A stretch of DNA of 64,000 nucleotides from Nitrincola iocasae (GCF_008727795.1 NZ_CP044222.1:3632686-3696685); one strand, 5' to 3'; positions 8,026 through 59,772 are shown, counted from the first letter of the stretch. Numbers and translations are program-made. The notes: generated from the sequence alone by a model not told the origin.

Positions 8026-9729
<1,704 letters not shown>

Positions 9730-28511: not shown

Positions 28512-28870
28512 CTAGCTATCCTCAGTCAGGTTGGTCGTTATTGCAACTTTTGATTCACACAAAATAGCTTCTGCAACAAAAGTGCCAAAACCAAACCGCA
28601 AAGAAAAAAGAGTGAAAATATGCTTAAGATCAACTAAATGAAAAAAACTTATGCCGGTATGACGAATATCTAGGCTAGTATTCTGAATTCAATCGGTGCA
28701 TCTACGCACTAAAATGTGGCAAAACACATCTACGAGGCCGGGGAACCCAAGGCTAACTCGCCCCACTATGGATTGGTACATGACTCTAAGAAATTTTTCA
28801 TCAAATAGAAATGAGAATCGAATAGCATCATGCCGACCACTTTTGCTATGATGCATTAACACGAAAAACC

Positions 28871-42559: not shown

Positions 42560-43069
42560 TTACCCAAGCATTTTAGGGCGCTCTGCCAAAGGCGTAGAGA
42601 AGGTATGCTCCATATCCCAGGGAAACCGTATCCAGGTATCCTGGCTAACCTCAGTAATAAACGTATCCACCAGCGGCTTTCCGGCTGGCTTGGCATAAAG
42701 GGTGGCAAAGTGTGCTTTCGGCAACATCTCGCGAACATGACGCGCCGTTTTGCCAGTATCCACCAGGTCATCAATCAGAATCATTCCTTCACCATCACCA
42801 GCAACGCCCTTGAGCACCGTGAGATCACCCTGGGCGGCGGCGGTACCGTAAGTGTCACTTTTCTGATAGCTCACTACACAGATGGTATCAATCATGCGGA
42901 TATCCATCTCACGTGCCAATATTGCTGCGGGGACCAGGCCACCACGGGTAATCGCAATAATGCCGTTCCATTGGCCCTTATCCAAGAGTCGCCAGGCTAG
43001 TGCGCGGGCATTACGGTGCAGCTCTTCCCAGCCGACAGGAAAGTCCATCCGGTAGTGGTGTTCAGTCAT
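42560..43069 (-). CDS. gpt: Xanthine-guanine phosphoribosyltransferase.
   Basis: Near-collinear match to E. coli Gpt ([21 protein letters not shown]...[17 protein letters not shown]...DTWIRFPWD). Confidence 0.9.
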
Positions 43070-43332
43070 GGTGCATTCTCCGAGTCGCAATTGTGACGAC
43101 TTAGGTTAGAGGGATTGATCGATTTTGACAAAGACGATCAACAAATCAATTATTTATTATTTTATATTATACTTACAGCGCAGAAACCATTAAGTTGACC
43201 AATTGATCAATTTTTTGGCACAAGACTTGCCACCAAGTCTCGTGATAGTACCGTGACACTCTATTCAGACGTCAGCAACAGTTAACGTCTCTGAAATGAA
43301 TTATGCTGGCTAAACATGAAAAGGTAACCCTT

Positions 43333-44625
43333 ATGCTTGAACGTCTTTTCCAACTTGAAGCCCACAATACCTCGGTTCGAAACGAGATAATCGGTGGCAT
43401 AACCACTTTCCTGACCATGGCGTATATTATATTCGTCAACCCGGCGATGCTGGCGCAAGCCGGTATGGATCAGGGAGCCGTCTTTGTCGCCACCTGCCTT
43501 GCAGCCGCCATAGGTTGTTTAATTATGGGGCTTTATGCGAACTACCCGATCGCACTTGCACCAGGAATGGGCTTAAATGCCTTCTTCACCTACGGCGTTG
43601 TTCTCGGCATGGGGTATTCCTGGGAAGTCGCACTGGGGGCCATCTTCCTTTCGGGTGTGATATTCGTTTTTATCAGCATCTTCAAGATTCGCGAGTGGAT
43701 CATTAACTCCATTCCAGCCTCATTGAAACTCGGTATTGCAGCCGGCATCGGTTTGTTCCTGGCGATCATCGCCCTGAAAAATGCCGGTATTGTAGTTGAG
43801 CATCCGGCCACGCTGGTTACGCTCGGTGATCTGTCTACACCACCAGCCATCTATGGCCTTCTCGGCTTTTTTGTGATTGCAGCGCTGGCTTATCTGAGGG
43901 TAACCGGTGCAGTCATGATCGGTATTTTGAGCATCACGGTGCTTGCCATCATTTTAGGACACAATGAATTTGGCGGACTTGTCTCCATGCCGCCGTCCAT
44001 TGCACCAACTTTCTTAGCCATGGATATTGCCGGTGCTTTTGAAGTAGGCATGATCAGTGTGATTTTTGCTTTCCTGTTTGTCGATCTGTTTGATACAGCC
44101 GGTACACTCATCGGTGTCGGCGAGCGCGGCAAATTACTGGATGAAGACGGCAAACTACCCCGGATCAAAAAAGCCCTGCTGGCCGACTCTACAGCAACCG
44201 TTGTCGGCGCTTCACTGGGTACATCATCAACCACCAGCTACATCGAAAGCGCCGCCGGTGTTGCTGCGGGTGGGCGCACCGGCCTGACGGCCGTAGTGGT
44301 TGCGATACTGTTTCTGGTGAGTTTGTTTTTTGCACCTTTAGCTGGCTCCATTCCCGCTTACGCCACAGCGGGTGCACTGTTGTACGTGGCTGTATTGATG
44401 ACAGGCAGTCTATCCAAAGTCGACTGGGACGACGTGTCTGAAGCCGCCCCGGTACTGATTGCAGCCCTGACCATGCCACTGACCTTCTCCATTGCCCATG
44501 GTATAGCGCTGGCATTTATCAGCTACGCCGCCATCAAGCTCTTCTCTGGACAGGGTAAGCAGGTCAGCATTAGCGTCTATGCGCTGGCAGTCTTCTTTGT
44601 GGTTAAATTTATATTCTTTCCTTGA
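43333..44625 (+). CDS. AzgA/NCS2-family purine (guanine/hypoxanthine/adenine) permease.
   Basis: MLERLFQLEAHNTSVRNEIIGGITTFLTMAYIIFVNP matches the GhxP/AdeQ-type N-terminus. Confidence 0.85.
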   Translation: MLERLFQLEAHNTSVRNEIIGGITTFLTMAYIIFVNPAMLAQAGMDQGAVFVATCLAAAIGCLIMGLYANYPIALAPGMGLNAFFTYGVVLGMGYSWEVALGAIFLSGVIFVFISIFKIREWIINSIPASLKLGIAAGIGLFLAIIALKNAGIVVEHPATLVTLGDLSTPPAIYGLLGFFVIAALAYLRVTGAVMIGILSITVLAIILGHNEFGGLVSMPPSIAPTFLAMDIAGAFEVGMISVIFAFLFVDLFDTAGTLIGVGERGKLLDEDGKLPRIKKALLADSTATVVGASLGTSSTTSYIESAAGVAAGGRTGLTAVVVAILFLVSLFFAPLAGSIPAYATAGALLYVAVLMTGSLSKVDWDDVSEAAPVLIAALTMPLTFSIAHGIALAFISYAAIKLFSGQGKQVSISVYALAVFFVVKFIFFP

Positions 44626-44947
44626 GTCCCGCGGGCTGCAGTCTGGCAACGACTGACTGCAGCCCTGATGCTTCGCACTTTTTCTTAATCCACCTGAAAC
44701 ACCTAACGCTAGTATCCCCTACTGACTCGGTTTGTAGATTAACCTTGGATATTCCATAGCTGAAATAGCAAACTTGGCAAGCTTCCTGCATTTCTTGACT
44801 GTACAGTCAGGTTTTATTTGATCTATAGTTGATTAAAGCACTTGGACTTTTTCCTCGGTCGGGAAAGACTATTAGCATTTGATTCACACAAATCCATTGT
44901 TAGTCAGTTACTTAAGGCCAGAAAACACGCATTTAGGAAGCATTGAT

Positions 44948-46417
44948 ATGCAATTTATGCTGAATCAAACACACATCCAACTGGATGAGTGTGCACCAGA
45001 TACCACCCTGTTGGAGTATCTTCGCACCCATCTGGTGCAACGCGGCACCAAAGAAGGCTGCGCATCGGGTGATTGTGGCGCCTGTACGGTGGTATTGGCT
45101 GAATCAGGCGGAGACGGTTTGCGCTACCGCGCTATCAACAGTTGCATTACCTATCTGGGAGCTGTCGATGGCTGTCAGGTGATTACGGTTGAAGGGTTAA
45201 GTCATCAGTCTGGGCAGTTGCACCCGGTGCAACAGGCGATGGTGGATCAACATGCCTCACAGTGTGGCTTTTGTACGCCGGGATTTGTGATGTCGCTGTT
45301 CGCCCTCACACATCAGCCGCAAGAGCCACACGACACCACACCTACCGAGCGGATTCATCAGGCGCTCGGCGGCAACCTGTGCCGTTGCACCGGCTATCGA
45401 CCTATCATCGATGCCGCCAAAAGCTTATTGTCGGTCCCGCTGCCAGATGCTTTCAATGAACGGGAAGACCATGTACACCGCCAACTCAATGATTGGACTG
45501 CAATCAACGAGGACGGCTGCATAACACTCAAGGCGGGTGAAAGCCGTGTCTTTGCCAGTCCTCGTAGCAGTGAGGCGCTATTGAATTGTTTAGCACACTA
45601 TCCGCAAGCGCGACTGGTTGCGGGAGGCACCGATCTGGCACTGGAAAGCACACAGCAATTGCATAGTCTGCCCCAATTAATTTACACCGGCCGCGTGGCT
45701 GAAATGCGCCAGATCAGTGAACGGGAAGATGCATTGGTGATTGGTGCCGCCGTTACCTACAGCGAAGCCGAGCCGATACTGACACATGCCTTTCCGGCGT
45801 TAGCTGGCCTGCTGCATCGTCTGGGCTCTCTGCAGGTACGTAATCAGGGCACGCTGGGAGGCAATATTGCCAATGCCTCTCCGATCGGTGATATGCCACC
45901 GGTACTGCTGGCGCTGGATGCCCAATTACGTATCCGCGATGCCGAGGGTGTCATCGACATGCCGATCCGTGAATTTTTCACTGGTTATCGACAAACCCGC
46001 TTACCACCTGGAGGCTTTATTGAAGCGCTGATCCTACCTCGCCTTCAGCCTGACAGTTTTTTGCGTATCTACAAATTATCGAAACGTCTGGATGATGATA
46101 TCTCCGCAGTGTGCCTGGCCATGCATCTGCAACTGGATCAGGACCGTATTGTCAGCGCCCGACTGGGTTTGGGTGGTATGGCAGCCACACCGGCACGTGC
46201 GTATCAGGCAGAAGCCGCCTTGATTGGCCAGCCTTTCACCCCCGAAGGGATACGCGCGGCGCAAAGGGCGTTAGCTGCTGACTTTACCCCGCTCACTGAT
46301 GTGCGCGCCAGTGCCGAATACCGGTTACGTAGCGCCAGCAATTTATTGCTGCGGGCCGTCCTGGAATATCAGGGTCATTCATCTTTGGAGGTAAGTTATC
46401 ATGCGCACACTGGCTGA
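44948..46417 (+). CDS. xdhA: Xanthine dehydrogenase small subunit ([2Fe-2S] plus FAD-binding).
   Basis: Iron-sulfur motifs CASGDCGACTV and CGFCTPGF..CRCTGY, followed by an FAD-binding domain. Start placed at the ATG at 44948, which is preceded by AGGAAG. Confidence 0.85.
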   Translation: MQFMLNQTHIQLDECAPDTTLLEYLRTHLVQRGTKEGCASGDCGACTVVLAESGGDGLRYRAINSCITYLGAVDGCQVITVEGLSHQSGQLHPVQQAMVDQHASQCGFCTPGFVMSLFALTHQPQEPHDTTPTERIHQALGGNLCRCTGYRPIIDAAKSLLSVPLPDAFNEREDHVHRQLNDWTAINEDGCITLKAGESRVFASPRSSEALLNCLAHYPQARLVAGGTDLALESTQQLHSLPQLIYTGRVAEMRQISEREDALVIGAAVTYSEAEPILTHAFPALAGLLHRLGSLQVRNQGTLGGNIANASPIGDMPPVLLALDAQLRIRDAEGVIDMPIREFFTGYRQTRLPPGGFIEALILPRLQPDSFLRIYKLSKRLDDDISAVCLAMHLQLDQDRIVSARLGLGGMAATPARAYQAEAALIGQPFTPEGIRAAQRALAADFTPLTDVRASAEYRLRSASNLLLRAVLEYQGHSSLEVSYHAHTG

Positions 46418-48746
46418 AACCCCTCCAACAACACTGACTGAACAATCATTCGGCGGTGTAGGTACCACGGTACCCCATGACAGTGCCCGACAACATGTAA
46501 TGGGAACGGCACGCTATGTGGATGATATCGCTGAACCCCAGGGCACACTTTACGCAGCGGTTATCGGCAGTCGGATCGCCAAGGGGCGTATCCGTTCACT
46601 CGACCTGAAAGCGGTTGCTGCAGCCCCCGGAGTAGTTGCTCTGCTGACACTGGATGATGTACCCGGTCATACCGATATTGGCCCGGTATTCCCCGGCGAT
46701 CCCATTTTGACTCAGAGTGACATACGTTATGCTGGCCAGCCTATCGCACTGGTGGCTGCCATTAGTGAAAAAGCCGCCCGTCAGGCCGCACTGCTGGCTC
46801 AGATTGACTACGACGCCCAGACACCACAACTGGATGCTGAAACCGCGCTGGCTAACCAGCAGCTATTAAGGCCCAGCCACCGTATGCAACTGGGGGATTG
46901 TGCAACCGCCTTGCAGCAGGCCCCTATTCAACTGAGCGCCAAGATGCAGGTTGGAGGGCAAGAACATCTATACCTGGAAGGCCAGGTCAGCCTGGCGGTA
47001 CCGGGTGAAGATGGCGACATGCTCATTTACACCTCCAGCCAACACCCCAGTGAGGTACAAAAACTGGTGGCAGAGGTATTAAACCAACCTCTGCACAAGG
47101 TCACTGTGGATATGCGCCGCATGGGCGGTGGCTTTGGTGGCAAGGAAACCCAAGCGGCGCCTTGGGCCTGTCTCGCCGCACTGATGGCGGCTAAAACCGG
47201 ACAGGCCGTCAAGCTGCGTCTGCCGCGCAAAGACGATATGGTCATGACCGGTAAGCGTCATCCGTTTGTGAACCGATACCATATCGGCTGTGACGAGCAG
47301 GGTCGACTGCTGGCAGCCGATATAGAAGTGATCGGAAACGGGGGGCACTCTCCCGATCTGACTGACGCCATCGTCGATCGTGCCATGTTTCATGCCGATA
47401 ACGCCTACTTCCTGCCCAATGCCGATATTCGTGGCCACCGGGTCGCCACCGATACTGTCTCGCATACAGCATTTCGCGGTTTCGGTGGCCCGCAAGGCAT
47501 GCTGATTATTGAACGTGCCATGGATGATATTGCCCGGCACCTGGGTTGTGACCCACTGGATATCCGCAAGCGCAATCTCTACGCTGAGAAAAGGGATCTG
47601 ACCCCTTATCATCAGCAGGTGGAGTTTGCCACGCTGCAGCGGTTGGTGACGGAACTGGAACAAAGCAGTGATTACTGGGCGCGGCGCAAAGCGATTACCC
47701 AGTGGAATAACGGCAGCGCGATTCTCAAGCGTGGACTGGCACTGACGCCGGTGAAGTTTGGCATCTCCTTTACCCTGCAGCACCTGAATCAGGCGGGGGC
47801 TTTGCTACACATTTACACCGATGGCAGTATCCAGCTTAACCACGGTGGCACAGAAATGGGTCAGGGGCTACACACCAAGGTAGCCCAGGTGGTGGCCAGT
47901 ACGCTGGGGGTGGATCTGCAGCAGATACGCATTACTGCTACACGCACGGACAAAGTCCCCAACACCTCACCCACCGCCGCCTCCAGTGGTTCTGATCTGA
48001 ATGGCAAAGCCGCCGAACAGGCCGCTCTGACACTCAAGCAGCGACTGAGTGACTTTCTTGCCGAACAACAGGCTGTACCACTGTCGCAGATACGTTTTTC
48101 TGACAATCAGGTCTGGTGGGATGATCATCAGTCAGTGACTTTTGCTGAGCTGGTGCAACAGGCCTATCTGGCCAGAATCTCACTCTCGGCTACCGGCTAT
48201 TACCGTACCCCGAAAATCTGGTATGACCGGGAAAAAGCCCAAGGCCGTCCTTTCTTTTATTTCGCCACAGGTGCCGCCGTATCCGAAGTTATTATCGACA
48301 GCCTGACCGGCGAGTATCGGCTACTTCAGACTGACATTCTTCATGATGTCGGCAAGAGCCTGAACCCGGCTATCGATATTGGCCAGATTGAAGGTGGATT
48401 TATTCAGGGTATGGGCTGGTTGACCACCGAGGAGCTGGTCTGGAATGCAGAGGGGCAGTTACTGAGTAATTCACCTGCTACCTATAAAATTCCGGCGATC
48501 AGTGACACCCCGCCAATATTTAATGTCAGGCTGTTTGAGCAAGCCAATGCTGAAGCCACGATTTATCACTCCAAAGCGGTCGGTGAGCCACCACTTATGC
48601 TGGCAATCTCTGTCTGGTCAGCGCTGCGCGATGCCATTAGCAGTCTCAGTGATTACCGCATCAGTCCGGATCTGGATACCCCCGCCACACCGGAGCGGGT
48701 ACTGGCTGCCATTGAGGCATTAAAAAAACAACAGGAGGCTAGCTGA
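46401..48746 (+). CDS. xdhB: Xanthine dehydrogenase molybdopterin-binding large subunit.
   Basis: 781-aa aldehyde oxidase/xanthine dehydrogenase molybdopterin domain (GGGFGGKE, AFRGFGGPQG). Confidence 0.9.
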   Translation: MRTLAETPPTTLTEQSFGGVGTTVPHDSARQHVMGTARYVDDIAEPQGTLYAAVIGSRIAKGRIRSLDLKAVAAAPGVVALLTLDDVPGHTDIGPVFPGDPILTQSDIRYAGQPIALVAAISEKAARQAALLAQIDYDAQTPQLDAETALANQQLLRPSHRMQLGDCATALQQAPIQLSAKMQVGGQEHLYLEGQVSLAVPGEDGDMLIYTSSQHPSEVQKLVAEVLNQPLHKVTVDMRRMGGGFGGKETQAAPWACLAALMAAKTGQAVKLRLPRKDDMVMTGKRHPFVNRYHIGCDEQGRLLAADIEVIGNGGHSPDLTDAIVDRAMFHADNAYFLPNADIRGHRVATDTVSHTAFRGFGGPQGMLIIERAMDDIARHLGCDPLDIRKRNLYAEKRDLTPYHQQVEFATLQRLVTELEQSSDYWARRKAITQWNNGSAILKRGLALTPVKFGISFTLQHLNQAGALLHIYTDGSIQLNHGGTEMGQGLHTKVAQVVASTLGVDLQQIRITATRTDKVPNTSPTAASSGSDLNGKAAEQAALTLKQRLSDFLAEQQAVPLSQIRFSDNQVWWDDHQSVTFAELVQQAYLARISLSATGYYRTPKIWYDREKAQGRPFFYFATGAAVSEVIIDSLTGEYRLLQTDILHDVGKSLNPAIDIGQIEGGFIQGMGWLTTEELVWNAEGQLLSNSPATYKIPAISDTPPIFNVRLFEQANAEATIYHSKAVGEPPLMLAISVWSALRDAISSLSDYRISPDLDTPATPERVLAAIEALKKQQEAS

Positions 48747-49603
48747 TGATCCGTTGGAGCGATGCCCTGGCTGAATGTCAGCGCACTGGTCAATCCCATG
48801 TACTGGTCAGTGTCATCAGTACCGAAGGGTCCGTACCGCGCAACCCCGGCAGCAAAATGCTGGTGACTGAAGACACTTTGATAGACACCCTGGGCGGAGG
48901 CAATCTGGAGTGGCATGCCCTGGAATACGCGCGCCAACTCTTGTCTGAGGGAAAAAACGTTCAACGCCTGCAGAAATTTCCACTGGCGGCGGCGCTGGGA
49001 CAGTGTTGCGGCGGCCATGCCACGCTGCTGTTTGAGTGCTTTTGTCACGTCAGCCACTCGCTGTGGCTATTTGGTGCCGGTCATGTCGGACATGCCCTGA
49101 GCAAGATATTGCAAGACCTGCCGCTCAGGCTTAACTGGGTTGATAATCGTCCAGCGCAATTTCCAGTCGATTTAGCGGCTGATATTATCCAGCACCACCC
49201 AGAAGCGCCCACCGATGTGTTTAATCAGATGAGGCCCAACGACTCTCTGCTGATCATGACCCACTCGCATGATCTGGATTACCGCCTGTGTGAAGCGGCC
49301 TTAACACAACAGCATCAAGGGTTTATCGGTTTAATTGGCTCAGATACCAAAGCCGCTCGCTTTCGTCATCGCCTCAGGCATGCCGGGTTTAGCACCGATG
49401 AAGTTAACCGTATCGAGTGCCCGGTCGGGGTGACTGGCATAGGGGGAAAGCGCCCCATGGAAGTCGCGGTGTCCATTGCCGCACGTGTCATTCAGCACTA
49501 CCGCAGCCAATTACCCGATGAGAGCATCCATCAAGGTCTATCAAGAACAGAGCAGGCCGAACTGAACAGGCAATTACAAGAGACCCACCATGACACTGAA
49601 TGA
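48746..49603 (+). CDS. xdhC: Xanthine dehydrogenase accessory/maturation protein XdhC.
   Basis: Operon position and XdhC/CoxI-like sequence. Confidence 0.8.
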   Translation: MIRWSDALAECQRTGQSHVLVSVISTEGSVPRNPGSKMLVTEDTLIDTLGGGNLEWHALEYARQLLSEGKNVQRLQKFPLAAALGQCCGGHATLLFECFCHVSHSLWLFGAGHVGHALSKILQDLPLRLNWVDNRPAQFPVDLAADIIQHHPEAPTDVFNQMRPNDSLLIMTHSHDLDYRLCEAALTQQHQGFIGLIGSDTKAARFRHRLRHAGFSTDEVNRIECPVGVTGIGGKRPMEVAVSIAARVIQHYRSQLPDESIHQGLSRTEQAELNRQLQETHHDTE

Positions 49604-50096
49604 ACTCAATCAACTCGATCCGCAGGCGGCGGCTACCTGCTTCCGTCAATGCTGCGTCAGTGAGGCCTGGGTGCAGGGCATGCTTCAGGCGCGGCCTTTC
49701 AGCAGTGAAGCATCATTGTTTGCTGAGGCCTCGCGCATCTGGGCGGGACTCGAAAGAAATGATTATCTACAAGCCTTTGAAGGCCACCCGAAAATTGGCG
49801 ACGTCAGCTCTCTGCGAGCAAAATATGCCGACACCAAAGCGCTGGCTGCAGGCGAACAATCCTCTGTGGACAGTGCCAATGAAGCGACGATCAACGCACT
49901 GGCTGAAGGTAATCAGCAGTATGAAGCCCGCTTTGGCTATATTTTTATTGTCTGTGCTACAGGCAAGTCAGCTGAGGAAATGCTGGCACTACTGACAGAG
50001 CGATTACACAACGATACGGAAACAGAAATTCACCTGGCGGCTGCAGAGCAAAACAAAATCACTCAGATCCGCTTACAAAAATTACTTCAAAATTGA
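49590..50096 (+). CDS. uraD: OHCU decarboxylase.
   Basis: OHCU_decarbox-like N-terminus. Located between xdhC and uraH. Confidence 0.8.
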   Translation: MTLNELNQLDPQAAATCFRQCCVSEAWVQGMLQARPFSSEASLFAEASRIWAGLERNDYLQAFEGHPKIGDVSSLRAKYADTKALAAGEQSSVDSANEATINALAEGNQQYEARFGYIFIVCATGKSAEEMLALLTERLHNDTETEIHLAAAEQNKITQIRLQKLLQN

Positions 50097-50116
50097 TCTA
50101 GACAAGCAGGACAAGT

Positions 50117-50458
50117 ATGAGCCAAATAACAACCCATGTACTGGATACAGCCAAAGGCCACCCCGCCGCAGGCATTCCCATCAGCCTTTTTCATCTGGAC
50201 AAGGGCAACTGGATTGAAATCAGCCAGGGAGTCACTAACCAGGACGGTAGAATTGCCGACCTGCTGGCGGATGGCATCACTTTAGCCGCAGGCCGTTACC
50301 GTATGCGCTTTATGCTGGAGGGCTATTTCAGCTCACAGGATCAGCCCACCTTTTATCCCCAGGTCGATATAGAGTGTAACCTGAGTGGTGCTGGCGATCA
50401 TTACCACATTCCCCTGTTGATCAGCCCGTTTGGCTATACCACCTATCGAGGTTCCTGA
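50117..50458 (+). CDS. uraH: 5-hydroxyisourate hydrolase (transthyretin-like).
   Basis: 113 aa ending in the HIUase signature YRGS. Confidence 0.9.
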   Translation: MSQITTHVLDTAKGHPAAGIPISLFHLDKGNWIEISQGVTNQDGRIADLLADGITLAAGRYRMRFMLEGYFSSQDQPTFYPQVDIECNLSGAGDHYHIPLLISPFGYTTYRGS

Positions 50459-50461
50459 GAC

Positions 50462-51763
50462 ATGACCCTGCATGCCTTTCGTGGATCTGCTCTGCACTAT
50501 CTGGAAGATCCTCTTACCCATGCCGAACACGCCAGTGAGTTTATCGAAGATGCACTACTGCTGGTCGAGGATGGCAAAATCAAGGCGCTCGCGCCTTATG
50601 CTGAACTGCGCCACAAGCTGGAGCCTTCAGTCAAACTGGTGGACTACTCGGGCAAACTCCTCATGCCCGGTTTTATTGATCTGCATACTCATTATCCGCA
50701 AACGGAAATCATTGCATCCTATGGCAAACAACTGCTGGACTGGCTGAACAACTATACCTTTCCAACTGAAGCCAAATTTTCTGATGCCAGCTATGCAAAG
50801 TCCATCGCCGAGCTGTTTATTGATGAACTGCTGCGCAATGGAACAACCACCGCTATGGTCTTCGCGACCGTGCACAAGGCATCAGCCGATGCTTTTTTTG
50901 AAGCCGCCGCCGCTCAGAACCTGCGAATGATCGCAGGCAAGGTGTTGATGGACCGTAATGCGCCTGCTGATTTATGCGACACGGCAGAATCAGGCTATGT
51001 CGAGTCAGCTGAATTGATTGAAAAGTGGCATGGCAAGCAGCGCTTATCCTATGCCGTGACACCCCGTTTTGCCCCCACCAGTACGCCGGAACAGCTTCAT
51101 AGTGCAGGCCAGTTACTGCAAACCTACCCTGACGTTTATCTGCAAAGCCACCTGGCTGAAAACCATGATGAACTGGCCTGGGTTGCCCGGCTATTCCCCA
51201 AGGCGCGTGATTATCTGGATGCTTATGAACAAGCGGGCCTACTGGGATCTCGCTGTGTTTATGCGCATGGTATCCACCTGAGTGAATCCGCCTGTGAGCG
51301 CCTGGCCGAGTCGGCTACCGTACTGGCGCACTGCCCCACATCCAACCTGTTTCTGGGTTCCGGCTTATTTGATATGCAACGCATCAGTGATGCGGGCATC
51401 CGCTATGCCCTGGGGACAGATGTCGGCGGTGGTACCAGTTTTTCCATGTTCCGCACCCTCGCTGAGGCCTACAAGATTCAACAGCTGCAACAGCACTCTT
51501 TACACCCGCACCAGTCTTTGTATCTGGCCACTTTGGGTGGTGCCCGTGCCTTATCCCTGGATCATTTGATTGGCAACTTTCTGCCTGGAAAAGAAGCGGA
51601 TTTTATTGTTGTGGATCCCCAGGCAACACCTCTGCTCAGTTTCAGAACCGCTCAGTGCGACAGCCTGACCGAAATGCTGTTTGCCTTAACTACCCTCGGT
51701 GATGACCGATTAATTTATGCCACCTATATTCTTGGCAATCTTGCTTACCTTCAGGAGCGTTAA
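50462..51763 (+). CDS. guaD: Guanine deaminase.
   Basis: Amidohydrolase with PGFIDLHTHYPQ and a GuaD-like length. Confidence 0.85.
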   Translation: MTLHAFRGSALHYLEDPLTHAEHASEFIEDALLLVEDGKIKALAPYAELRHKLEPSVKLVDYSGKLLMPGFIDLHTHYPQTEIIASYGKQLLDWLNNYTFPTEAKFSDASYAKSIAELFIDELLRNGTTTAMVFATVHKASADAFFEAAAAQNLRMIAGKVLMDRNAPADLCDTAESGYVESAELIEKWHGKQRLSYAVTPRFAPTSTPEQLHSAGQLLQTYPDVYLQSHLAENHDELAWVARLFPKARDYLDAYEQAGLLGSRCVYAHGIHLSESACERLAESATVLAHCPTSNLFLGSGLFDMQRISDAGIRYALGTDVGGGTSFSMFRTLAEAYKIQQLQQHSLHPHQSLYLATLGGARALSLDHLIGNFLPGKEADFIVVDPQATPLLSFRTAQCDSLTEMLFALTTLGDDRLIYATYILGNLAYLQER

Positions 51764-51766
51764 TTC

Positions 51767-52957
51767 ATGGATCCCTATTTATATGACTGGTTAAATTTAG
51801 TCGTACGACTACTGCACGTCGTTACTGCGATTGCCTGGATAGGCGCGTCCTTTTACTTTATCTGGCTGGATAACTCACTGGAAGAACCACCACAATGGAA
51901 AAAGGACAAGGGTATTAAAGGGGACTTATGGTCAATCCATGGCGGTGGCATTTACGAAGTCGCCAAATACCAGCTCAGCCCGGAAAAAATGCCCAAGCAC
52001 CTGCACTGGTTCAAATGGGAAGCCTATTCCACCTGGATTACCGGTATGCTAATGCTAACGCTGATTTACTATGTTGGCGCCTCCAGTTACATGATTGATC
52101 CTTCCAAAGCTGATCTGGCTCCCTGGCAGGCCATCGGTTTGGGGCTGGGAAGCATCGTCATAGGGTTTCTGGTGTATGAACTTTTGTGTCGCACCCCGCT
52201 GGTGGATAAAGAGCTGCTATTGGGTGTTATTTTACTGGGTGTGATTGCGTTCCTCGCTTGGTTTTTAGGTCAGTTTATTGGTGACCGGGCGGCCTATATC
52301 CATATCGGTGCATTGATTGGCACCTGTATGGCCGCCAATGTATTCACCACCATCATCCCATCACAAAAGGCACTGTTGGGTGCTATTGAAAAAGGCGAAT
52401 CACCAGACCCTCTTTACGGCCTAAATGCCAAGCGTCGATCCACCCATAATAACTACGCCACCATCCCGGTGCTGTTTATTATGCTCAGTAATCACTCGCC
52501 AATGACCTATGGTCATGAACATAGCTGGGCTATTCTGACAGCCCTGATAGTGATCGGTGCCTGGGCCCGGCATTTCTTTAACCTGCGACACAAAGGCATC
52601 GTCAAACCCTCTATCCTGATCACCGCTGTGCTGGCCTTTATTGTGCTGATATTAATCGCACGTCCACAGCCCATCCAGCAACTGGAGGCAGGTGAACAGC
52701 CGCTCTCAGATAACCAAGCCTTTGCGATTGTGATGGAGCGCTGCGCAACCTGCCATAGCCGCAGCCCTACAGACGACATCTTCGCCGTAGCGCCAGCAGG
52801 CGTCTACCTGGAAAGTGAAGCTGACATTATGCGTCTATTGGATAGAATAGAAGCCAGAAGTATTCTGACACACGATATGCCTTTCTTGAATAAAACTGAG
52901 ATGACACTGAAAGAAAGAGCCTTATTGGCAGACTGGATAAAACGTACAAAAAGCTGA
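51767..52957 (+). CDS. puuD: Membrane-bound urate hydroxylase PuuD (cytochrome c-containing).
   Basis: Polytopic N-terminus plus a C-terminal CATCH heme c motif. Located in the urate-degradation cluster. Confidence 0.8.
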   Translation: MDPYLYDWLNLVVRLLHVVTAIAWIGASFYFIWLDNSLEEPPQWKKDKGIKGDLWSIHGGGIYEVAKYQLSPEKMPKHLHWFKWEAYSTWITGMLMLTLIYYVGASSYMIDPSKADLAPWQAIGLGLGSIVIGFLVYELLCRTPLVDKELLLGVILLGVIAFLAWFLGQFIGDRAAYIHIGALIGTCMAANVFTTIIPSQKALLGAIEKGESPDPLYGLNAKRRSTHNNYATIPVLFIMLSNHSPMTYGHEHSWAILTALIVIGAWARHFFNLRHKGIVKPSILITAVLAFIVLILIARPQPIQQLEAGEQPLSDNQAFAIVMERCATCHSRSPTDDIFAVAPAGVYLESEADIMRLLDRIEARSILTHDMPFLNKTEMTLKERALLADWIKRTKS

Positions 52958-52980: not shown

Positions 52981-53685
52981 TTATTTTAAAGCGCCACAGC
53001 CTTTCATAATAACATGAATCAAGGTTTCTGCAGCCGCCGCATAATCCTGCTCATCAGGTTCTTTTTTATTTAAAGCTGCAGCTATTTGCACAGAGAAATC
53101 GGAGTAATGCTGCGTAGTCGACCAAATCATAAACAATAAATGCTCGGGTGTTATTGCATCTATTTTGCCCTGTTCTATCCATTTTCTGAACACAGCAACA
53201 CGACCTGCAAACCACAGATGATAATTATCACTAAAATAGGCTTTCATATTATTTGCGCCACTGATTATTTCAGCTGCAAATATTCTTGAGGCCAAACTAT
53301 ACTCCCGGGCAAAGGCAATTTTTTGACGAATATACTCAGGCAAAACCTCAGAGGGATCGTCATCCTCAGTAAAATCACTCAGGCTTGCATCCCAGATATC
53401 AATAATATTACTCAAAACCGCAATATAAAGACCCATTTTATTTTTAAAATAGTAATGGATATTCGCCTTCGGCAAGCCCGCCCGTTGCGCAATGGCGCTC
53501 ATACTGGCACCGGCAAAGCCCCGTTCAGCGAACTCCACCTCAGCGGCACGGATAATCAGTGTTTCATTTTGCTTGCGGATTCTACCCACAGGTTTATCAT
53601 GCTGATGGGATTCAATATTGAATAGCAAAAGGCTGCTCTCCGGAAGGACTCGTGTGTCTTCTATAGGGCCAGCAGTATAATACAC
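52981..53685 (-). CDS. TetR-family transcriptional regulator. Candidate purine-catabolism regulator.
   Basis: HTH TLIIRAAEVEFAERGFAGASMSAIAQRAGLPKANIHYYFKNK. The ORF carries about 30 extra N-terminal residues, so the true start may be downstream at a non-ATG codon. Confidence 0.8.
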   Translation of the reverse strand: MYYTAGPIEDTRVLPESSLLLFNIESHQHDKPVGRIRKQNETLIIRAAEVEFAERGFAGASMSAIAQRAGLPKANIHYYFKNKMGLYIAVLSNIIDIWDASLSDFTEDDDPSEVLPEYIRQKIAFAREYSLASRIFAAEIISGANNMKAYFSDNYHLWFAGRVAVFRKWIEQGKIDAITPEHLLFMIWSTTQHYSDFSVQIAAALNKKEPDEQDYAAAAETLIHVIMKGCGALK

Positions 53686-53732: not shown

Positions 53733-55097
53733 TTACAATTGTCTGCTTACCAAACGTTCGGCCTGCTGCTGATGCGCTCTACGCAGTTGCTCTTCATCCT
53801 TATGTACCAACCGGCCCGCTTCAACCAGCCATTTGCCTGCCACCATCACTCGATCAGCCCGATGAGCACCACACAACAGCAGGGCTGCTAGCGGATCGTG
53901 ACTACCGGAAAATCTCAGCTCATCCAGGCGGAACAATGCCAGATCAGCCTGCATACCCACCTCCAGCACGCCCAAATCCTGACGCCCGAGCAAACTTGCT
54001 GACCCCTGAGTAACCCAGCGCAAAGCATCCAAATGAGACACCGCTTCGGCACCATATTTAAGGCGCTGCAGATACATTGCCTGTCGAGCTTCAGTGATCA
54101 GATTGGAGCTATCATTCGATGCCGAACCATCCACACCGAGACCTACCGGTGCCCCGGCTTGCTCCAGATCCAGCACCGGACAGATACCGGACGCCAGCAT
54201 CATATTTGAGGAAGGGCAATGACAAATACCGGTTCCGGCTGCGCCTAAACGCTGAATCTCGTCCTGATTGAAATGGATACCGTGAGCTAACCAGGTCTGT
54301 GCAGATAGCCATCCGACATGCTCAAGGTAATCCACCGTACGCATCCCAAAGCGCTTAAGGCAAAAGGCCTCTTCATCCAGTGTTTCGGCCAGGTGCGTGT
54401 GTAAGCGAACAGTATACTCTGTAGCCAATTTAGCTGACTCACTCATCAACTCGCTGGTTACCGAAAATGGGGAGCAAGGCGCAAGCGCAACCTGTCTCTT
54501 CGAGCCCACTGCAGGGTCATGAAAGCGTTTGATCAATCGCAGACTATCATCCAGAATTTGGCTTTCCTGTTGCACCACGCTTTGTGGTGGCAAACCTCCG
54601 TCTGCGGCGCCAAGACTCATGGAGCCACGCGTCAGCGTCACCCGCATACCAGTACTTTCGGCGGCATCCATCTGTATATCGATGGCCTGGGTTAATTGGT
54701 CAGGAAATACATAGTGATGATCAGCCGCGGCGGTACACCCGGATAACAGCAGTTCAGATAACGCCAGCTCCGTGGCACTGAACAGCATGTTTTCATCCAG
54801 CCCGGCCCAGATCGGATAAAGCGTCTGCAACCAGGGAAACAAGGGTTTATTCAATGCCGCAGGCAGTGCACGTGTCAGTGTCTGATAAAAGTGGTGATGG
54901 GTGTTAATCAAGCCAGGTAACACCACGTGCTGACTGGCATCAAACACTTCATCACAGGGAGTGCTTGGCACCGCCCCCTTAGCCAAGACCTCCCGGATCA
55001 CTCCCTGATCCGTATTGATCACCAGCCCACCAGCACTGTCTGCAGCCGTGTTGGTATGCGTTGCCAGTGGCTGTTTAATCCATATACGCCTGGTCAT
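53733..55097 (-). CDS. Amidohydrolase-family deaminase (8-oxoguanine/isoxanthopterin deaminase-like).
   Basis: Metal-binding HxH motif (LINTHHHFYQ) and a 454-aa SsnA/8-oxoguanine-deaminase-like layout. Confidence 0.7.
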   Translation of the reverse strand: MTRRIWIKQPLATHTNTAADSAGGLVINTDQGVIREVLAKGAVPSTPCDEVFDASQHVVLPGLINTHHHFYQTLTRALPAALNKPLFPWLQTLYPIWAGLDENMLFSATELALSELLLSGCTAAADHHYVFPDQLTQAIDIQMDAAESTGMRVTLTRGSMSLGAADGGLPPQSVVQQESQILDDSLRLIKRFHDPAVGSKRQVALAPCSPFSVTSELMSESAKLATEYTVRLHTHLAETLDEEAFCLKRFGMRTVDYLEHVGWLSAQTWLAHGIHFNQDEIQRLGAAGTGICHCPSSNMMLASGICPVLDLEQAGAPVGLGVDGSASNDSSNLITEARQAMYLQRLKYGAEAVSHLDALRWVTQGSASLLGRQDLGVLEVGMQADLALFRLDELRFSGSHDPLAALLLCGAHRADRVMVAGKWLVEAGRLVHKDEEQLRRAHQQQAERLVSRQL

Positions 55098-56479
55098 TCA
55101 GCTACTCTGCCTTGCAAGGATGACTGCTCCAGTTCCAACTGCTCTTCAGCAGCGGGGGTTTCTTCCGGCAAAATCAAACTCAAAATTATGGCTGTCAAAC
55201 CACCCGAAGTAACGGCTGATCCGAAAATGTTGCGTACCAGATCAGGCATCTCGGCCAACAAGTCCGGCGTCATGGAAACACCCAGACCTATCCCGAATGA
55301 GGCTGCCATAATCAATAGATTACGGCGATCCAGGGTTTCGTTTGCCAGGATTTTTACACCAGCCGCCGCCACGGTACCAAACATTACCAGGGTTGCTCCA
55401 CCCAACACCGGCTTGGGAATCTGCTGTAGTACGGCACCAATGATGGGGAAAAGCCCTAGAATCATCAGAATCACGGCAACATAGTAACCAATATAACGAC
55501 TGGCAACGCCGGTCAACTGGATCACACCATTATTCTGACTGAAGGTTGTATTGGGAAAAGTATGAAACACTGAAGCAATCATTGAGTTGATGCCATCAGC
55601 CAACACCCCACCACGAATACGTTTTATATATTCATCGCCCTTAATCGGCTGCTTGGAGATAATGCAGTTGGCGGTAATATCGCCACTGGTCTCAATAGCA
55701 GTTACCAGATAGATTAATGCCACGGGGAAGAAAGCACTGAAATCAAATGCAAAACCGTACTGAAACGGTATAGGGATAGTCAACAGACTTACACTGGACA
55801 GGTGATCAAAGCTGATCTGTCCCATGACGGCGGCAATCACATACCCGGCCACCAGCCCCAGCACAATGGAAGACAATCTCACCCAGGGATTGGCTGAGCG
55901 GTTCAGCAGAATAATGGTAATGAGAACAAAACCACCCAGTGACAGATTTGCAACGCTACCGAAGTCCGGAGCGTTAACACCTCCGGCAAGATCCGTCATA
56001 CCCACACGTATCAGACTGATACCGATAATGGTAATGACAATACCGGTAACCAGGGGTGTCAGTATGCGTTTGAGCTTGTGCAATATCTGACTAATGAAGA
56101 TTTCAATAAATGCACCAAAAAAACACACGCCGGTAATCAGTGCCAGAATCTCTTCTGGCCCACCACCCTTACCCTTGGCGATAAACCCAGCGGCTAGTAT
56201 GGCACTCAAAAACGCAAAACTGGTGCCCTGAACACAAATCATCCCGGCACCTATCCCCCAGGCACGCCGTGCCTGGATAAAGGTACCAACGCCCGAGACA
56301 AATAATGCCATGCTGATCAGGTAAGGCAGGTACTCACCCAGACCCAACACCCCGCCTATGATTAATGTGGGTGTGATAATACCAACAAAGCTGGCAAGCA
56401 CATGCTGTATGGCCGCAAAAGTTGACGCTTTAAACCCAGGCCTTGAGTCAAGCGGATAAAGTAGATCATTTTTCATCAT
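55094..56479 (-). CDS. NCS2-family xanthine/uric acid permease.
   Basis: Xanthine/uracil permease family motifs. The ORF track extends to 56506 (GTG). ATG starts at about 56479 or 56476 are preferred. Confidence 0.85.
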   Translation of the reverse strand: MMKNDLLYPLDSRPGFKASTFAAIQHVLASFVGIITPTLIIGGVLGLGEYLPYLISMALFVSGVGTFIQARRAWGIGAGMICVQGTSFAFLSAILAAGFIAKGKGGGPEEILALITGVCFFGAFIEIFISQILHKLKRILTPLVTGIVITIIGISLIRVGMTDLAGGVNAPDFGSVANLSLGGFVLITIILLNRSANPWVRLSSIVLGLVAGYVIAAVMGQISFDHLSSVSLLTIPIPFQYGFAFDFSAFFPVALIYLVTAIETSGDITANCIISKQPIKGDEYIKRIRGGVLADGINSMIASVFHTFPNTTFSQNNGVIQLTGVASRYIGYYVAVILMILGLFPIIGAVLQQIPKPVLGGATLVMFGTVAAAGVKILANETLDRRNLLIMAASFGIGLGVSMTPDLLAEMPDLVRNIFGSAVTSGGLTAIILSLILPEETPAAEEQLELEQSSLQGRVAE

Positions 56480-56848
56480 CAGTATCCTATAGGTTGAAAG
56501 TGCCACTGAGCATTAAGTGTTCAGGCATCTGTATCCGTGACAGGTATGCTCACCAAAAAGCTGACTGCACAGTCAGGTTTTAAAAGCAGAAATCATGCCA
56601 AACTATAAATAGTTTCAACAAATAAAATAAAAACCTTAATCTTCGAAGTGCGAAAGTGAGCGAAAAAAAACATAACCAATTGAAAAATAATATAATATAT
56701 TAAATACCATTGATTATTACACAGAAGTAAAGAGATACACTGTTATACAGAAGAGCACGCCTCCTTTAGCACCATAATGGGGATAATTTACGTTAAGTGC
56801 GTGCAAATAAGGCACCGGGCTGATTGAATTAACCCAGTGCCCAGTCAG

Positions 56849-57631
56849 TTATATGGCCGCACTATTACTGCCACGATTAGCCCAACGGGTAAAACGCTTT
56901 TCCATCCAGGCAAAGATTTCGTACATCACTACACCCATGACACCGATCACGATCAGTCCGGCAAACACCAACGCCATATCCATGGATGAACTGGCCGCCA
57001 TCATCAAATAACCGATACCCATATTGGATGCGACTGTTTCAGAGATAACCGAACCGACAAATGCCAGGGTAATGGCTACCTTCAATGACGCAAAAAAATA
57101 TGGCAACGCTCTTGGTAGGCCCACCTTACGCAGAATATCGAGTTTAGATGCTCCCAAAGAACGCATCACATCCTCAAGCTCCGGCTCCAGTGTTGCCAAG
57201 CCTGTAGCCACATTCACCAGTATCGGAAAAAAGGAGATCAGAAAGGCTGTCAGTATAGCCGGGACCGTGCCAATACCAAACCAAACGACTAATACAGGCA
57301 CAAAGGCCACTTTTGGAATGCTGTTAAACCCGACTAACAGTGGATAGAGCGCTTTATAAACAATCGGATAAGTTCCCACAGCAACGCCCATAACCACCCC
57401 GACCAAAACGGCAATAGCAAACCCCACCAGTGTCGTGAAAAAGGTCTGCCAGGCATGCATCATGATCGGTTCCCAGCGAGCCACGCCCGCATCCCATACA
57501 GCCGTAGGTGCTGGAAACAGGTACTCAGGTACATTAAAGCCTACACAGATAATTTCCCACAGCAACAGCAGGACCAGTATCAGCATCCAGCTGGCATTCC
57601 TGATCATAAACTTGCGACGATTAAATGCCAT
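56849..57631 (-). CDS. ABC transporter permease (NitT/TauT family).
   Basis: Six TM helices and a BPD_transp_1 layout. Confidence 0.8.
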   Translation of the reverse strand: MAFNRRKFMIRNASWMLILVLLLLWEIICVGFNVPEYLFPAPTAVWDAGVARWEPIMMHAWQTFFTTLVGFAIAVLVGVVMGVAVGTYPIVYKALYPLLVGFNSIPKVAFVPVLVVWFGIGTVPAILTAFLISFFPILVNVATGLATLEPELEDVMRSLGASKLDILRKVGLPRALPYFFASLKVAITLAFVGSVISETVASNMGIGYLMMAASSSMDMALVFAGLIVIGVMGVVMYEIFAWMEKRFTRWANRGSNSAAI

Positions 57632-57645
57632 ACAGGCCTCCATTA

Positions 57646-58425: not shown

Positions 58426-58486
58426 AGAGCATCCTCAAGAAACCACGACAGGACTTGCCCAACCTCAGGCCAGGCAAGCTAGTTAA

Positions 58487-59536: not shown

Positions 59537-59772
59537 TAGAATCACCTTTTAATCTGAAGTGACCAGATATCTGGTCACTTAGGTCAATTTAGTAGTTAAC
59601 AGGTGGTCAGCAGCAATGCGGCTCTCACATGCAATACTAAAAACTGACCAGTTAGTCAGAATATAGCAATCCTTATGCCAGCTTTTTAGGTGCTAACGAC
59701 CTATCAATGACCATTTTACTGCACCGAAATAAAGCATAACAGATAGTGACTACCTCAAAAGGTGCGCCCGGC

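What the first reader, a model, noticed from the sequence alone, without database searches (positions are those of the whole stretch)
44794..44817. Shared 21-nt palindromic motif cTGACTG(T/C)ACAGTCAGGTTTTA upstream of xdhA
Seen in sequence: TGACTGTACAGTCA (a perfect 14-bp palindrome, about 44796-44809) followed by GGTTTTA lies about 140 bp upstream of the xdhA start. A near-identical copy is found upstream of the NCS2 xanthine/urate permease (next finding). Inference: this is the operator of a purine-catabolism regulator, plausibly the TetR-family protein encoded at 52981-53685. TetR operators are typically short palindromes of this size. A weaker relative (GTCACTGCACAGT at about 7247-7259) sits upstream of ureA, hinting at co-regulation of urease with the purine pathway.
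Basis: partly seen in the sequence, partly recalled or inferred. Interest (0 to 1): 0.55.

Follow-up and report, generated by a model that had tools for sequence, protein, structure and literature searches.

The report
RutR-type repressor operator for purine genes
The palindrome upstream of the xanthine dehydrogenase genes is real and is one of four binding sites for a locally encoded repressor related to E. coli RutR, each beside a nitrogen-type (sigma-54) promoter; it is a solid but ordinary example of a regulon already predicted in related bacteria.

Summary
TGACTGTACAGTCA (44796-44809) and TGACTGCACAGTCA (56562-56575), each followed by GGTTTTA, lie upstream of xdhA and of the xanthine permease operon.

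They belong to a 24-bp palindrome, AAAcCTGACyrnnyrGTCAGgTTT. The window holds two more copies: 59645 (upstream of an NMT1-type ABC transporter) and 43196 (between gpt and an NCS2 permease).

A matrix built only from other genomes, and one built only from experimentally mapped E. coli RutR sites, both pick out these four sites. All four are intergenic.

The TetR gene (52981-53628) is a RutR/YcdC-family paralog, 38% identical to E. coli RutR. It is the last gene of the permease operon, so it probably regulates itself.

In Nitrincola each operator abuts or overlaps a conserved sigma-54 promoter. This is the same logic as E. coli rutA.

Orthologous sites in about 80 genomes precede purine genes only.

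The proposed ureA site is not supported; that region holds NtrC-type boxes and a sigma-54 promoter. Terminator and riboswitch readings are weak.

RegPrecise-based work already predicted RutR regulons containing xdhABC, guaD, pbuT, COG3748 and gpt. This is therefore a new member of a known kind. The effector is untested; an invariant Leu78-to-Asp pocket change hints at a purine.

The parts
44791..44814 (.). Operator 1 (xdhA): TTTCTTGACTGTACAGTCAGGTTT. The 14-bp core is 44796-44809 and the RutR-type 16-mer is 44795-44810.
   Evidence: Searches confirm the sequence. Family matrix score 17.8. Rank 3 with the E. coli RutR matrix. Conserved as an island in three Nitrincola species (A2).
44775..44789 (+). 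Sigma-54 type -24/-12 promoter TGGCAAGCTTCCTGC for the xdhA operon. The GC element lies 6 nt before the operator core, so the inferred start site falls inside the operator.
   Evidence: Pattern search. Conserved in N. schmidtii and N. tibetensis. The start site is inferred from standard sigma-54 geometry.
56557..56580 (.). Operator 2 (xanthine permease / 8-oxoguanine deaminase / TetR operon): AAAGCTGACTGCACAGTCAGGTTT. The core is 56562-56575.
   Evidence: Family matrix score 24.9. Rank 8 with the E. coli matrix. Conserved in Nitrincola sp. A-D6 (A4).
56586..56600 (-). Sigma-54 type promoter TGGCATGATTTCTGC (minus strand), 10 nt upstream of the operator 2 core.
   Evidence: Invariant in Nitrincola sp. 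A-D6. No sigma-70-like promoter was found in this intergenic region.
59640..59663 (.). Operator 3 (ABC transporter operon): AAAACTGACCAGTTAGTCAGAATA. The core is 59645-59658, about 106 nt upstream of the substrate-binding protein gene.
   Evidence: score 25.8, best in the window. Rank 1 with the E. coli RutR matrix. Conserved in two other Nitrincola species (A3).
59666..59680 (-). Sigma-54 type promoter TGGCATAAGGATTGC (minus strand), 7 nt upstream of the operator 3 core.
43191..43214 (.). Operator 4, between divergent gpt and the NCS2 permease gene: TAAGTTGACCAATTGATCAATTTT. It contains the near-canonical RutR box TTGACCAATTGATCAA at 43195-43210.
   Evidence: Family matrix score 20.2. Rank 2 with the E. 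coli RutR matrix. Orthologous sites precede gpt in Marinobacterium (L007, L014).
43216..43232 (.). Palindromic sigma-54 type element. TGGCACAAGACTTGC (plus strand, 43216-43230) points toward the permease. TGGCAAGTCTTGTGC (minus strand, 43232-43218) points toward gpt. It abuts operator 4.
   Evidence: Which direction is functional is not resolved.
52981..53628 (-). Candidate repressor: a 215-aa TetR-family protein of the RutR/YcdC subfamily (TetR_N + TetR_C_3). It is the last gene of the permease operon.
   Evidence: 100% identical to a Nitrincola iocasae protein (P0001). Pfam domains. 38% identity to E. coli RutR structures 3LOC/4JYK. No promoter or terminator signal in the 104-nt gap before it.
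53733..56479 (-). Target operon: xanthine permease (55094-56479) and 8-oxoguanine deaminase (53733-55097), upstream of the TetR gene.
   Evidence: NCBIfam TIGR03173 and NF006055, both above cut-off.
44929..52957 (+). Target genes xdhA, xdhB, xdhC, OHCU decarboxylase (uraD), guanine deaminase and a PuuD-type urate oxidase (PF06181/COG3748).
   Evidence: Whether the 365-nt gap before guaD holds a separate promoter is not resolved; no operator was found there.
56849..59545 (-). Target operon: ABC transporter made of an NMT1/THI5-like binding protein, an ATPase and a permease (NitT/TauT type).
   Evidence: It resembles the 'ppuABCD' transporter listed in predicted RutR regulons.
42560..44625 (.). 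Divergent targets: xanthine phosphoribosyltransferase gpt (42560-43090, minus strand) and an NCS2-family permease (43303-44625, plus strand).

Best explanation
The palindrome is one of four operators in this Nitrincola iocasae region for a RutR-family TetR repressor encoded at 52981-53628.

A repressor dimer binds the 24-bp palindrome AAAcCTGACyrnnyrGTCAGgTTT. At xdhA, at the permease operon and at the ABC transporter operon, the operator starts 6-10 nt after the -12 element of a sigma-54 promoter. It therefore covers the start site and blocks sigma-54 RNA polymerase. At the gpt/permease divergent region it abuts the -24 element.

The repressor gene is the last gene of the permease operon, so it regulates itself.

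A nucleobase effector is expected to release the repressor. Because the regulon is purely purine and the pocket carries Asp in place of RutR Leu78, a purine such as xanthine, urate, hypoxanthine or guanine is more likely than uracil. Purine uptake, salvage and oxidation to urate would then be expressed only when nitrogen-type sigma-54 activation and purine availability coincide.

Shown: the sequence, its statistics, its conservation, the family of the protein and the similarity to the RutR box.

Inferred: actual binding, repression, the start sites, the activator and the effector.
For: - Motif statistics.
- An independent matrix from 16 experimentally verified E. coli RutR sites (PMC2475637) ranks the four sites 1, 2, 3 and 8 in 64 kb; 8 hits reach the threshold against 1.4 expected.
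- The protein has TetR_N + YcdC-like C-terminal domains and its best structural relatives are RutR entries (E = 3e-39).
- DNA-contacting Lys, Tyr and Lys residues of RutR (PMC2952853) are conserved.
- In 80 loci carrying orthologs (51-87% identity), 72 of 89 matrix hits are intergenic although only 18% of the DNA is. They precede the xanthine permease-tetR unit, xdhA, 8-oxoguanine deaminase, gpt, PuuE allantoinase, ureidoglycolate lyase, adenosine deaminase and BMP-type ABC transporters.
- Phylogenetic footprints within Nitrincola.
- Sigma-54 elements lie next to 9 of 9 Nitrincola operators, against a background of 0.035 per window.
- Precedent: E. coli rutA-G is transcribed from a sigma-54/NtrC promoter and repressed by RutR (PMC4325133).
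- RegPrecise-based reconstructions list xdhABC, guaD, pbuT, COG3748, ppuABCD and gpt in RutR regulons (PMC5343134 supplement).
Against: - No binding or expression data exist for this protein, and I found no experimental paper on this paralog.
- The loci were selected by presence of the TetR gene, so absence of the motif where the gene is absent was not tested.
- The rest of the N. iocasae genome could not be scanned. A second RutR paralog with a near-identical box could be the true binder of some sites, especially the canonical-looking site 4.
- The protein scores below the NCBIfam RutR equivalog cut-offs (169.6 against 368 bits).
- Three sites also meet a minimal terminator pattern.
- No clear activator (NtrC-type) boxes were found upstream of the purine promoters.
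Confidence: 0.8

Rival explanations
1. The sites are operators, but for a different regulator. This could be a second RutR-type protein (a true pyrimidine RutR/PydR) encoded elsewhere in the genome, or another local regulator such as the RpiR-family protein at 24812-25657. On this reading the local TetR is not the binder, or not the only one.
For: - The box is almost the same as the E. coli RutR box. Site 4 (TTGACCAATTGATCAA) is closer to the E. coli consensus than to sites 1 and 2.
- RegPrecise lists 'rutR2' paralogs in some genomes.
- Pseudomonas is reported to have a separate PydR (PMC4325133).
Against: - The motif travels with orthologs of this particular TetR, including directly upstream of tetR or of xanP-tetR in many genera. 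That is the classic self-regulated arrangement.
- All predicted targets are purine genes; none are pyrimidine genes.
- RpiR, AraC and cupin-HTH regulators do not use RutR-type boxes (general knowledge).
Confidence: 0.1
2. The palindrome plus T-run is a weak, partly bidirectional intrinsic terminator or attenuator hairpin. It would act at the RNA level, insulating the purine operons from read-through of the co-directional upstream genes.
For: - The simple terminator scan flags sites 1, 2 and 3 in the direction of transcription.
- Each lies between co-directional genes.
- The hairpins fold at -6.9 to -11.3 kcal/mol.
Against: - The stems are only 5-7 bp. Z-scores against shuffles are modest (-0.9 to -3.2). 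A much stronger hairpin (-21 to -24 kcal/mol) already follows the upstream permease gene at 44633-44665.
- The T-run is mirrored by an A-run, as expected for a DNA palindrome.
- Site 4 and the conserved Pseudomonas xanP sites (CTGAGCAAnTGGACAG, in more than 15 species) cannot form the hairpin, yet they keep the sequence.
- Conservation is at the level of sequence (TG/CA near-invariant), with non-concordant half-sites.
- The predicted sigma-54 start sites lie inside the palindrome, so the operon's own mRNA would lack the left arm.
- There are no Rfam matches.
Confidence: 0.06
3. It is a chance or repeat-derived similarity, such as a small dispersed repeat, with no regulatory role.
For: Sites 1 and 2 share 20 of 21 positions including the flank. 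That is more than an operator strictly needs and could suggest recent copying.
Against: - Matrices built without any window sequence recover the sites.
- Orthologous positions in other species keep the motif while the surrounding DNA diverges.
- All four sites are intergenic and next to purine genes.
Confidence: 0.02

Closest known systems
E. coli RutR (YcdC) and its RUT box TTGACCAnnTGGTCAA
   Same: - Same protein subfamily (TetR_N + PF08362). RutR structures are the best PDB matches.
- Same 16-bp palindrome architecture, with the critical A4/T13 positions (PMC2475637). An E. coli-derived matrix finds the window sites.
- The footprint extends into A/T flanks (PMC2952853).
- Pairing with a sigma-54/NtrC promoter, as at rutA (PMC4325133).
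- Negative autoregulation.
- E. coli RutR also touches purine degradation (the gcl-hyi-glxR...allB operon).
   Different: - Only 38% identity, and below the NCBIfam RutR cut-offs.
- The recognition helix has Ala and His where RutR has Thr and Leu, and the pocket has Asp where RutR has the specificity residue Leu78. All of these are invariant or nearly so in 80 orthologs.
- The preferred outer base is C rather than T (CTGAC).
- Targets are purine uptake, salvage and oxidation genes, with no rut, pyd or car genes nearby.
- The operators overlap the start site instead of lying upstream of the promoter.
RegPrecise-type predicted 'RutR' regulons in Proteobacteria (Leyn et al. 2016, PMC5343134)
   Same: The predicted members include xdhA/B/C (22 genomes, 5 taxonomic groups), guaD, pbuT xanthine/uracil permease, COG3748, ppuABCD ABC transporter, gpt, COG0726 (PuuE-like), allA and allC. 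This is essentially the gene set seen here and in the related loci.
   Different: - Those are computational predictions, labelled pyrimidine catabolism with uracil implied.
- Nitrincola was not shown to be among the genomes.
- They do not separate a purine-only paralog, and they do not describe the sigma-54 pairing.
XdhR of Streptomyces coelicolor and Agrobacterium fabrum
   Same: A repressor of xdhABC encoded next to its target (PMC6627660). That it belongs to the TetR family is from my own knowledge.
   Different: - Its effectors are (p)ppGpp, GTP and c-di-GMP; hypoxanthine is not a ligand (PMC6627660).
- It is divergently transcribed from xdhABC.
- No homology test was made here.
- It serves GTP homeostasis rather than nitrogen scavenging.
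NMT1-motif xanthine/urate riboswitch (from my own knowledge of the literature)
   Same: It controls the same kinds of genes (NMT1-type transporters, xanthine dehydrogenase) in Proteobacteria in response to xanthine or urate.
   Different: It is an RNA element. Rfam found nothing in any of the leaders here.

Membership tests
RutR/YcdC subfamily of TetR regulators (the protein) | N-terminal TetR HTH plus YcdC-like C-terminal domain (PF08362) | tested here: met
   PF00440 scores 52.8 bits and PF08362 scores 168.5 bits. The same pair is found in all 120 listed homologs.
RutR/YcdC subfamily of TetR regulators (the protein) | Scores above the curated RutR equivalog cut-off (orthology in NCBI's sense) | tested here: not met
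   TIGR03613 scores 169.6 bits against a cut-off of 368. NF011584 scores 152.6 against 230. The protein is a paralog, not a RutR equivalog.
RutR/YcdC subfamily of TetR regulators (the protein) | Uracil-binding residues L74, W77, L78, K101, W167, Q171, Q179 (PMC4325133) | tested here: inconclusive
   W77, K101, W167, Q171 and Q179 are identical. L74 is Ile or Leu. L78, the uracil-versus-thymine specificity residue, is Asp in all 80 orthologs. The nucleobase-binding frame is kept and specificity is probably changed.
RutR/YcdC subfamily of TetR regulators (the protein) | Genomic association with rut or pyd pyrimidine catabolic genes | tested here: not met
   The neighbours and predicted targets are purine genes only, in the window and in related loci.
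RUT-box operator (the DNA site) | 16-bp palindrome TTGACCAnnTGGTCAA with A at position 4 and T at position 13 | tested here: met
   All four sites keep A4 and T13. The matrix from E. coli ChIP sites ranks them 1, 2, 3 and 8 of about 64,000 positions.
RUT-box operator (the DNA site) | Bound by the cognate regulator and released by its effector | not testable with these tools
   This needs EMSA or footprinting with the purified protein.
RUT-box operator (the DNA site) | Conserved at orthologous regulatory positions across species carrying the regulator | tested here: met
   Alignments A2-A4. 72 of 89 hits are intergenic across 80 loci.
Sigma-54 dependent promoter | TGGCAC-N5-TTGC type -24/-12 element with GG and GC exactly 10 bases apart, upstream of a gene and conserved | tested here: met
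   One search gives 14 hits against 5.7 expected; four of them lie next to the operators. The elements are conserved in Nitrincola. Dependence on RpoN and on an activator was not testable.
Rho-independent terminator | Stable GC-rich hairpin followed by a U-tract, with structure rather than sequence conserved | tested here: not met
   The hairpins fold at -6.9 to -11.3 kcal/mol with stems of 5-7 bp. Orthologous Pseudomonas sites keep the sequence but cannot pair.
Known RNA families (riboswitches, including purine/xanthine classes) | Covariance-model match in the leader | tested here: not met
   There is no hit at gathering threshold. Only noise appears at E up to 5 in 43000-45000 and 56400-59900.

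The most novel reading that the evidence does not exclude
The regulator defines an experimentally uncharacterised, purine-dedicated branch of the RutR family.

In this branch an invariant Leu78-to-Asp change reshapes the uracil pocket. Leu78 is the residue that abuts C5 of uracil in RutR. The Asp could accept the imidazole ring of a 2,6-dioxopurine, making the protein a xanthine or urate sensor.

In Nitrincola this sensor sits directly on the start sites of sigma-54 promoters. The arrangement forms an AND gate between nitrogen limitation and purine availability.

Databases currently fold this branch into 'RutR, pyrimidine catabolism'.
Probability: 0.45. Interest if true: 0.45.

Novelty: new member of a known kind. 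Interest (0 to 1): 0.3.

Why it matters
The finding gives a coherent wiring diagram for purine scavenging in a marine and soda-lake gammaproteobacterium. Four operators, five transcription units and one self-regulated repressor are layered on sigma-54 promoters.

It also flags that many proteins annotated or predicted as 'RutR, pyrimidine regulator' in Oceanospirillaceae and Pseudomonas are probably purine regulators with a distinct pocket signature (Asp at RutR position 78).

This is useful for annotation. It could also supply a compact xanthine- or urate-responsive repressor/operator pair for biosensors.

It does not change any general concept, because RutR boxes, TetR autoregulation and sigma-54 control of nitrogen-source catabolism are all established.

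Tried and rejected
1. **ureA-upstream 'weak relative' (7245-7258).** It scores -18.6 with the family matrix. The region instead contains two NtrC-type boxes (GCACCAACTTAATGC at 7177 and the perfect GCACCAATTTGGTGC at 7207) and a sigma-54 promoter TGGCACACTCCTTGC at 7274-7288. Rejected as an operator.

2. **One-mismatch copies inside genes.** These are 24560 in the allantoicase gene and 46435 at the start of xdhB. Their family matrix scores are -14.5 and -3.0. I do not count them, although E. coli RutR is known to bind many intragenic sites (PMC2475637).

3. **41341 CCGACCACACAGTCAA at the start of a Prs-like gene.** It ranks 4th with the E. coli matrix but lacks the near-invariant T of cTGAC. 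Left open.

4. **Terminator or attenuator reading.** The hairpins are weak and are not conserved as structure.

5. **Riboswitch or other known RNA.** Rfam gave nothing.

6. **Sigma-70 promoter TGTACA-18-TATAGT overlapping site 1.** The -35 part is not conserved in the other Nitrincola species, although TATAGT is. I do not rely on it.

7. **NtrC boxes upstream of the purine sigma-54 promoters.** The strict pattern found none. The activator remains unknown.

8. **Literature searches for an experimentally studied xdh- or xanP-linked RutR paralog.** Nothing was found. Several hits were false matches to words beginning with 'tetr'.

Full report
**Observation.**

The window reads cTTGACTGTACAGTCAGGTTTTA at 44794-44816 and gCTGACTGCACAGTCAGGTTTTA at 56560-56582. 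The 14-mers are a perfect and a near-perfect palindrome. The pattern TGACTGNACAGTCA with up to two mismatches gives 8 strand-hits against 1.5 expected, and none of 100 shuffles reaches that number. The other hits, at 24560 and 46435, are inside genes.

**Gene context.**

The region encodes the following genes:
- gpt (42560-43090, minus strand)
- an NCS2 permease (43303-44625)
- xdhA, xdhB, xdhC, OHCU decarboxylase, guanine deaminase and a PuuD-type urate oxidase (44929-52957)
- on the minus strand, xanthine permease (55094-56479), 8-oxoguanine deaminase (53733-55097) and a TetR-family gene (52981-53628)
- an ABC transporter with an NMT1-type binding protein (56849-59545, minus strand)

The TetR protein is 100% identical to a Nitrincola iocasae protein. 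Site 2 lies upstream of the operon that ends with the TetR gene. No promoter or terminator signal separates that gene from the deaminase gene. Autoregulation is therefore likely, though inferred.

**What the protein is.**

It has a TetR HTH and the YcdC-like C-terminal domain PF08362. Its only strong matches among solved structures are E. coli RutR entries (3LOC, 4JYK, 4X1E, 6Z1B; E about 3e-39), at 38% identity. It scores below NCBIfam's RutR equivalog cut-offs (169.6 against 368 bits). It is therefore a RutR paralog, not RutR itself.

**What the motif is.**

The E. coli RutR box is TTGACCAnnTGGTCAA, with positions 4 and 13 the most critical (PMC2475637). RutR protects about 26-28 nt and also contacts flanking T residues (PMC2952853). 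Site 1 read as a 16-mer is TTGACTGTACAGTCAG, which has the same architecture.

I fetched 80 loci carrying orthologs of the TetR gene (51-87% identity; Nitrincola, Marinobacterium, Oceanobacter, Pseudomonas, Stutzerimonas and others). I mapped purine genes in them.

- The core TGAC-N6-GTCA occurs 24 times in the 18% of this DNA that is non-coding, against 16 times in the remaining coding DNA.
- The sites share A-rich left and T-rich right flanks, giving a 24-bp palindrome AAAcCTGACyrnnyrGTCAGgTTT.

A matrix built from 50 distinct intergenic sites, none from the window, gives four outstanding hits in the window: 59645 (25.8), 56562 (24.9), 43196 (20.2) and 44796 (17.8). The next best is 11.0, inside a gene. 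Random sequences average 0.55 hits at or above 12. All four hits are intergenic, although only 8% of the window is.

As a fully independent test, I built a matrix from the 16 high-affinity E. coli RutR ChIP sites alone. It ranks these positions 1, 2, 3 and 8 in the window.

**Regulon.**

In the window the four operators serve these units:
- the xdhA operon
- the permease / deaminase / TetR operon
- the ABC transporter operon
- the divergent gpt and NCS2-permease pair

In other genera the same motif precedes the following:
- xanP-tetR, in more than 20 Pseudomonas species
- BMP-type ABC transporters
- 8-oxoguanine deaminase
- gpt
- PuuE allantoinase
- ureidoglycolate lyase
- adenosine deaminase

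No pyrimidine genes appeared. Tandem sites 38-44 bp apart occur in three genomes. That spacing fits protein binding.

**Promoters.**

Alignments of the three upstream regions among Nitrincola species show conserved islands. Each contains the operator and, just before it, a sigma-54 type element:
- TGGCAAGCTTCCTGC at 44775-44789
- TGGCATGATTTCTGC at 56600-56586, minus strand
- TGGCATAAGGATTGC at 59680-59666, minus strand

The GC of the -12 element lies 6, 10 and 7 nt before the TGAC core. With standard sigma-54 geometry the start site then falls inside the operator.

Site 4 abuts a palindromic element, TGGCACAAGACTTGC / TGGCAAGTCTTGTGC at 43216-43232, which could fire either way.

The pairing holds for 9 of 9 Nitrincola operators against a background of 0.035 per window. 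It does not hold for the Pseudomonas sites. No sigma-70-like promoter was found upstream of the permease or ABC operons.

E. coli rutA-G is likewise transcribed from a sigma-54/NtrC promoter and repressed by RutR (PMC4325133). The logic therefore has a direct precedent. The activator here is unknown, because strict NtrC boxes were found only upstream of ureA.

**The ureA claim.**

The sequence at 7245-7258 scores -18.6 and breaks both near-invariant dinucleotides. It lies between NtrC-type boxes (7177-7191; a perfect GCACCAATTTGGTGC at 7207-7221) and a sigma-54 promoter at 7274-7288. Urease looks NtrC/sigma-54 controlled, as predicted for Oceanospirillales (PMC5343134). It does not look TetR controlled.

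**Rivals.**

*Terminator or attenuator.* The simple scan flags sites 1-3, but several points argue against this reading.
- The hairpins are weak, at -6.9 to -11.3 kcal/mol. A much stronger hairpin of -21 to -24 kcal/mol already follows the upstream permease gene at 44633-44665.
- The flanks are symmetric.
- Half-sites vary non-concordantly.
- The conserved Pseudomonas xanP site CTGAGCAAnTGGACAG cannot pair.

*Known RNA.* Rfam finds no known RNA in the leaders.

*A different binder.* A second RutR-type paralog elsewhere in the genome cannot be excluded, because the genome could not be scanned.

**Effector (inference).**

Of the RutR residues that hold uracil (PMC4325133), W77, K101, W167, Q171 and Q179 are identical here. 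L74 is Ile or Leu. L78, which excludes thymine by abutting C5, is Asp in all 80 orthologs.

The pyrimidine ring of xanthine or urate presents the same hydrogen-bonding face as uracil, and the imidazole ring would project toward position 78. Together with a purine-only regulon, this suggests a purine effector. This is untested.

The recognition helix also carries invariant His and near-invariant Ala where RutR has Leu and Thr.

**Comparison with what is known.**

RegPrecise-based reconstruction of 'RutR' regulons in 68 proteobacterial genomes already lists these members (PMC5343134 supplement):
- xdhA/B/C (22 genomes, 5 taxonomic groups)
- guaD
- pbuT
- COG3748
- ppuABCD
- gpt
- COG0726
- allA and allC

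The finding is thus a new instance of a predicted, known kind of regulon. The added points are the sigma-54 coupling in Nitrincola and the purine-only, Asp78 signature of this paralog.

I found no experimental study of this branch.

XdhR of Streptomyces is a functional analogue with different effectors (PMC6627660).

**Verdict.**

- Novelty is low to moderate.

Noticed in passing
window 7177-7288: Two NtrC-type boxes (GCACCAACTTAATGC at 7177-7191 and a perfect GCACCAATTTGGTGC at 7207-7221) precede a sigma-54 promoter TGGCACACTCCTTGC at 7274-7288, upstream of ureA. Urease appears to be under classical nitrogen control.
   Followed up: partly
window 44811-44831: The block TTTATTTGATCTATAGTTG immediately downstream of the xdhA operator is conserved in three Nitrincola species. 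It would lie at about +10 to +30 of the predicted sigma-54 transcript. Its function is unknown.
   Followed up: no
window 44633-44665: A strong hairpin, GGGCTGCAGTC...GACTGCAGCCC (-21 to -24 kcal/mol), lies right after the NCS2 permease stop codon. It is probably the real terminator of that gene.
   Followed up: partly
window 21791-28587: A minus-strand cluster holds an amino-acid-type ABC transporter, an RpiR-family regulator, allantoicase and a PuuE-like deacetylase. It sits behind a sigma-54-like element, TGGCACTTTTGTTGC (28587-28573). This lower part of the purine pathway has no TetR operator and may use the RpiR protein.
   Followed up: no
window 8179-8461 (minus strand): There is an Rfam match to 5_ureB_sRNA (120.7 bits) antisense within the urease alpha-subunit gene. 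It most likely reflects conservation of the coding sequence rather than a real small RNA.
   Followed up: no
window 1-7174: A type I restriction-modification locus has a RhuM-family gene and two AAA_13 ATPase genes inserted between the specificity (HsdS) and methylase (HsdM) genes.
   Followed up: no
window 41341-41356: CCGACCACACAGTCAA overlaps the start of a Prs-like (ribose-phosphate diphosphokinase family) gene. It ranks 4th with the E. coli RutR matrix but fails the family matrix. It could be a weak site.
   Followed up: partly
L047, L041, L059 and about 20 other Pseudomonas loci, roughly 50-75 nt upstream of xanP: A conserved asymmetric variant of the operator, AAcCTGAGCAAnTGGACAGCTTT, has half-sites that deviate from the consensus at different positions. 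A second variant, CCTGACTCAATGGCCAGG, lies upstream of a BMP-type ABC transporter operon downstream of tetR.
   Followed up: partly
window 59773-63217 (minus strand): A PAS histidine kinase and a response regulator with a GGDEF domain lie directly upstream of the ABC-transporter operator. No link to the purine regulon was examined.
   Followed up: no
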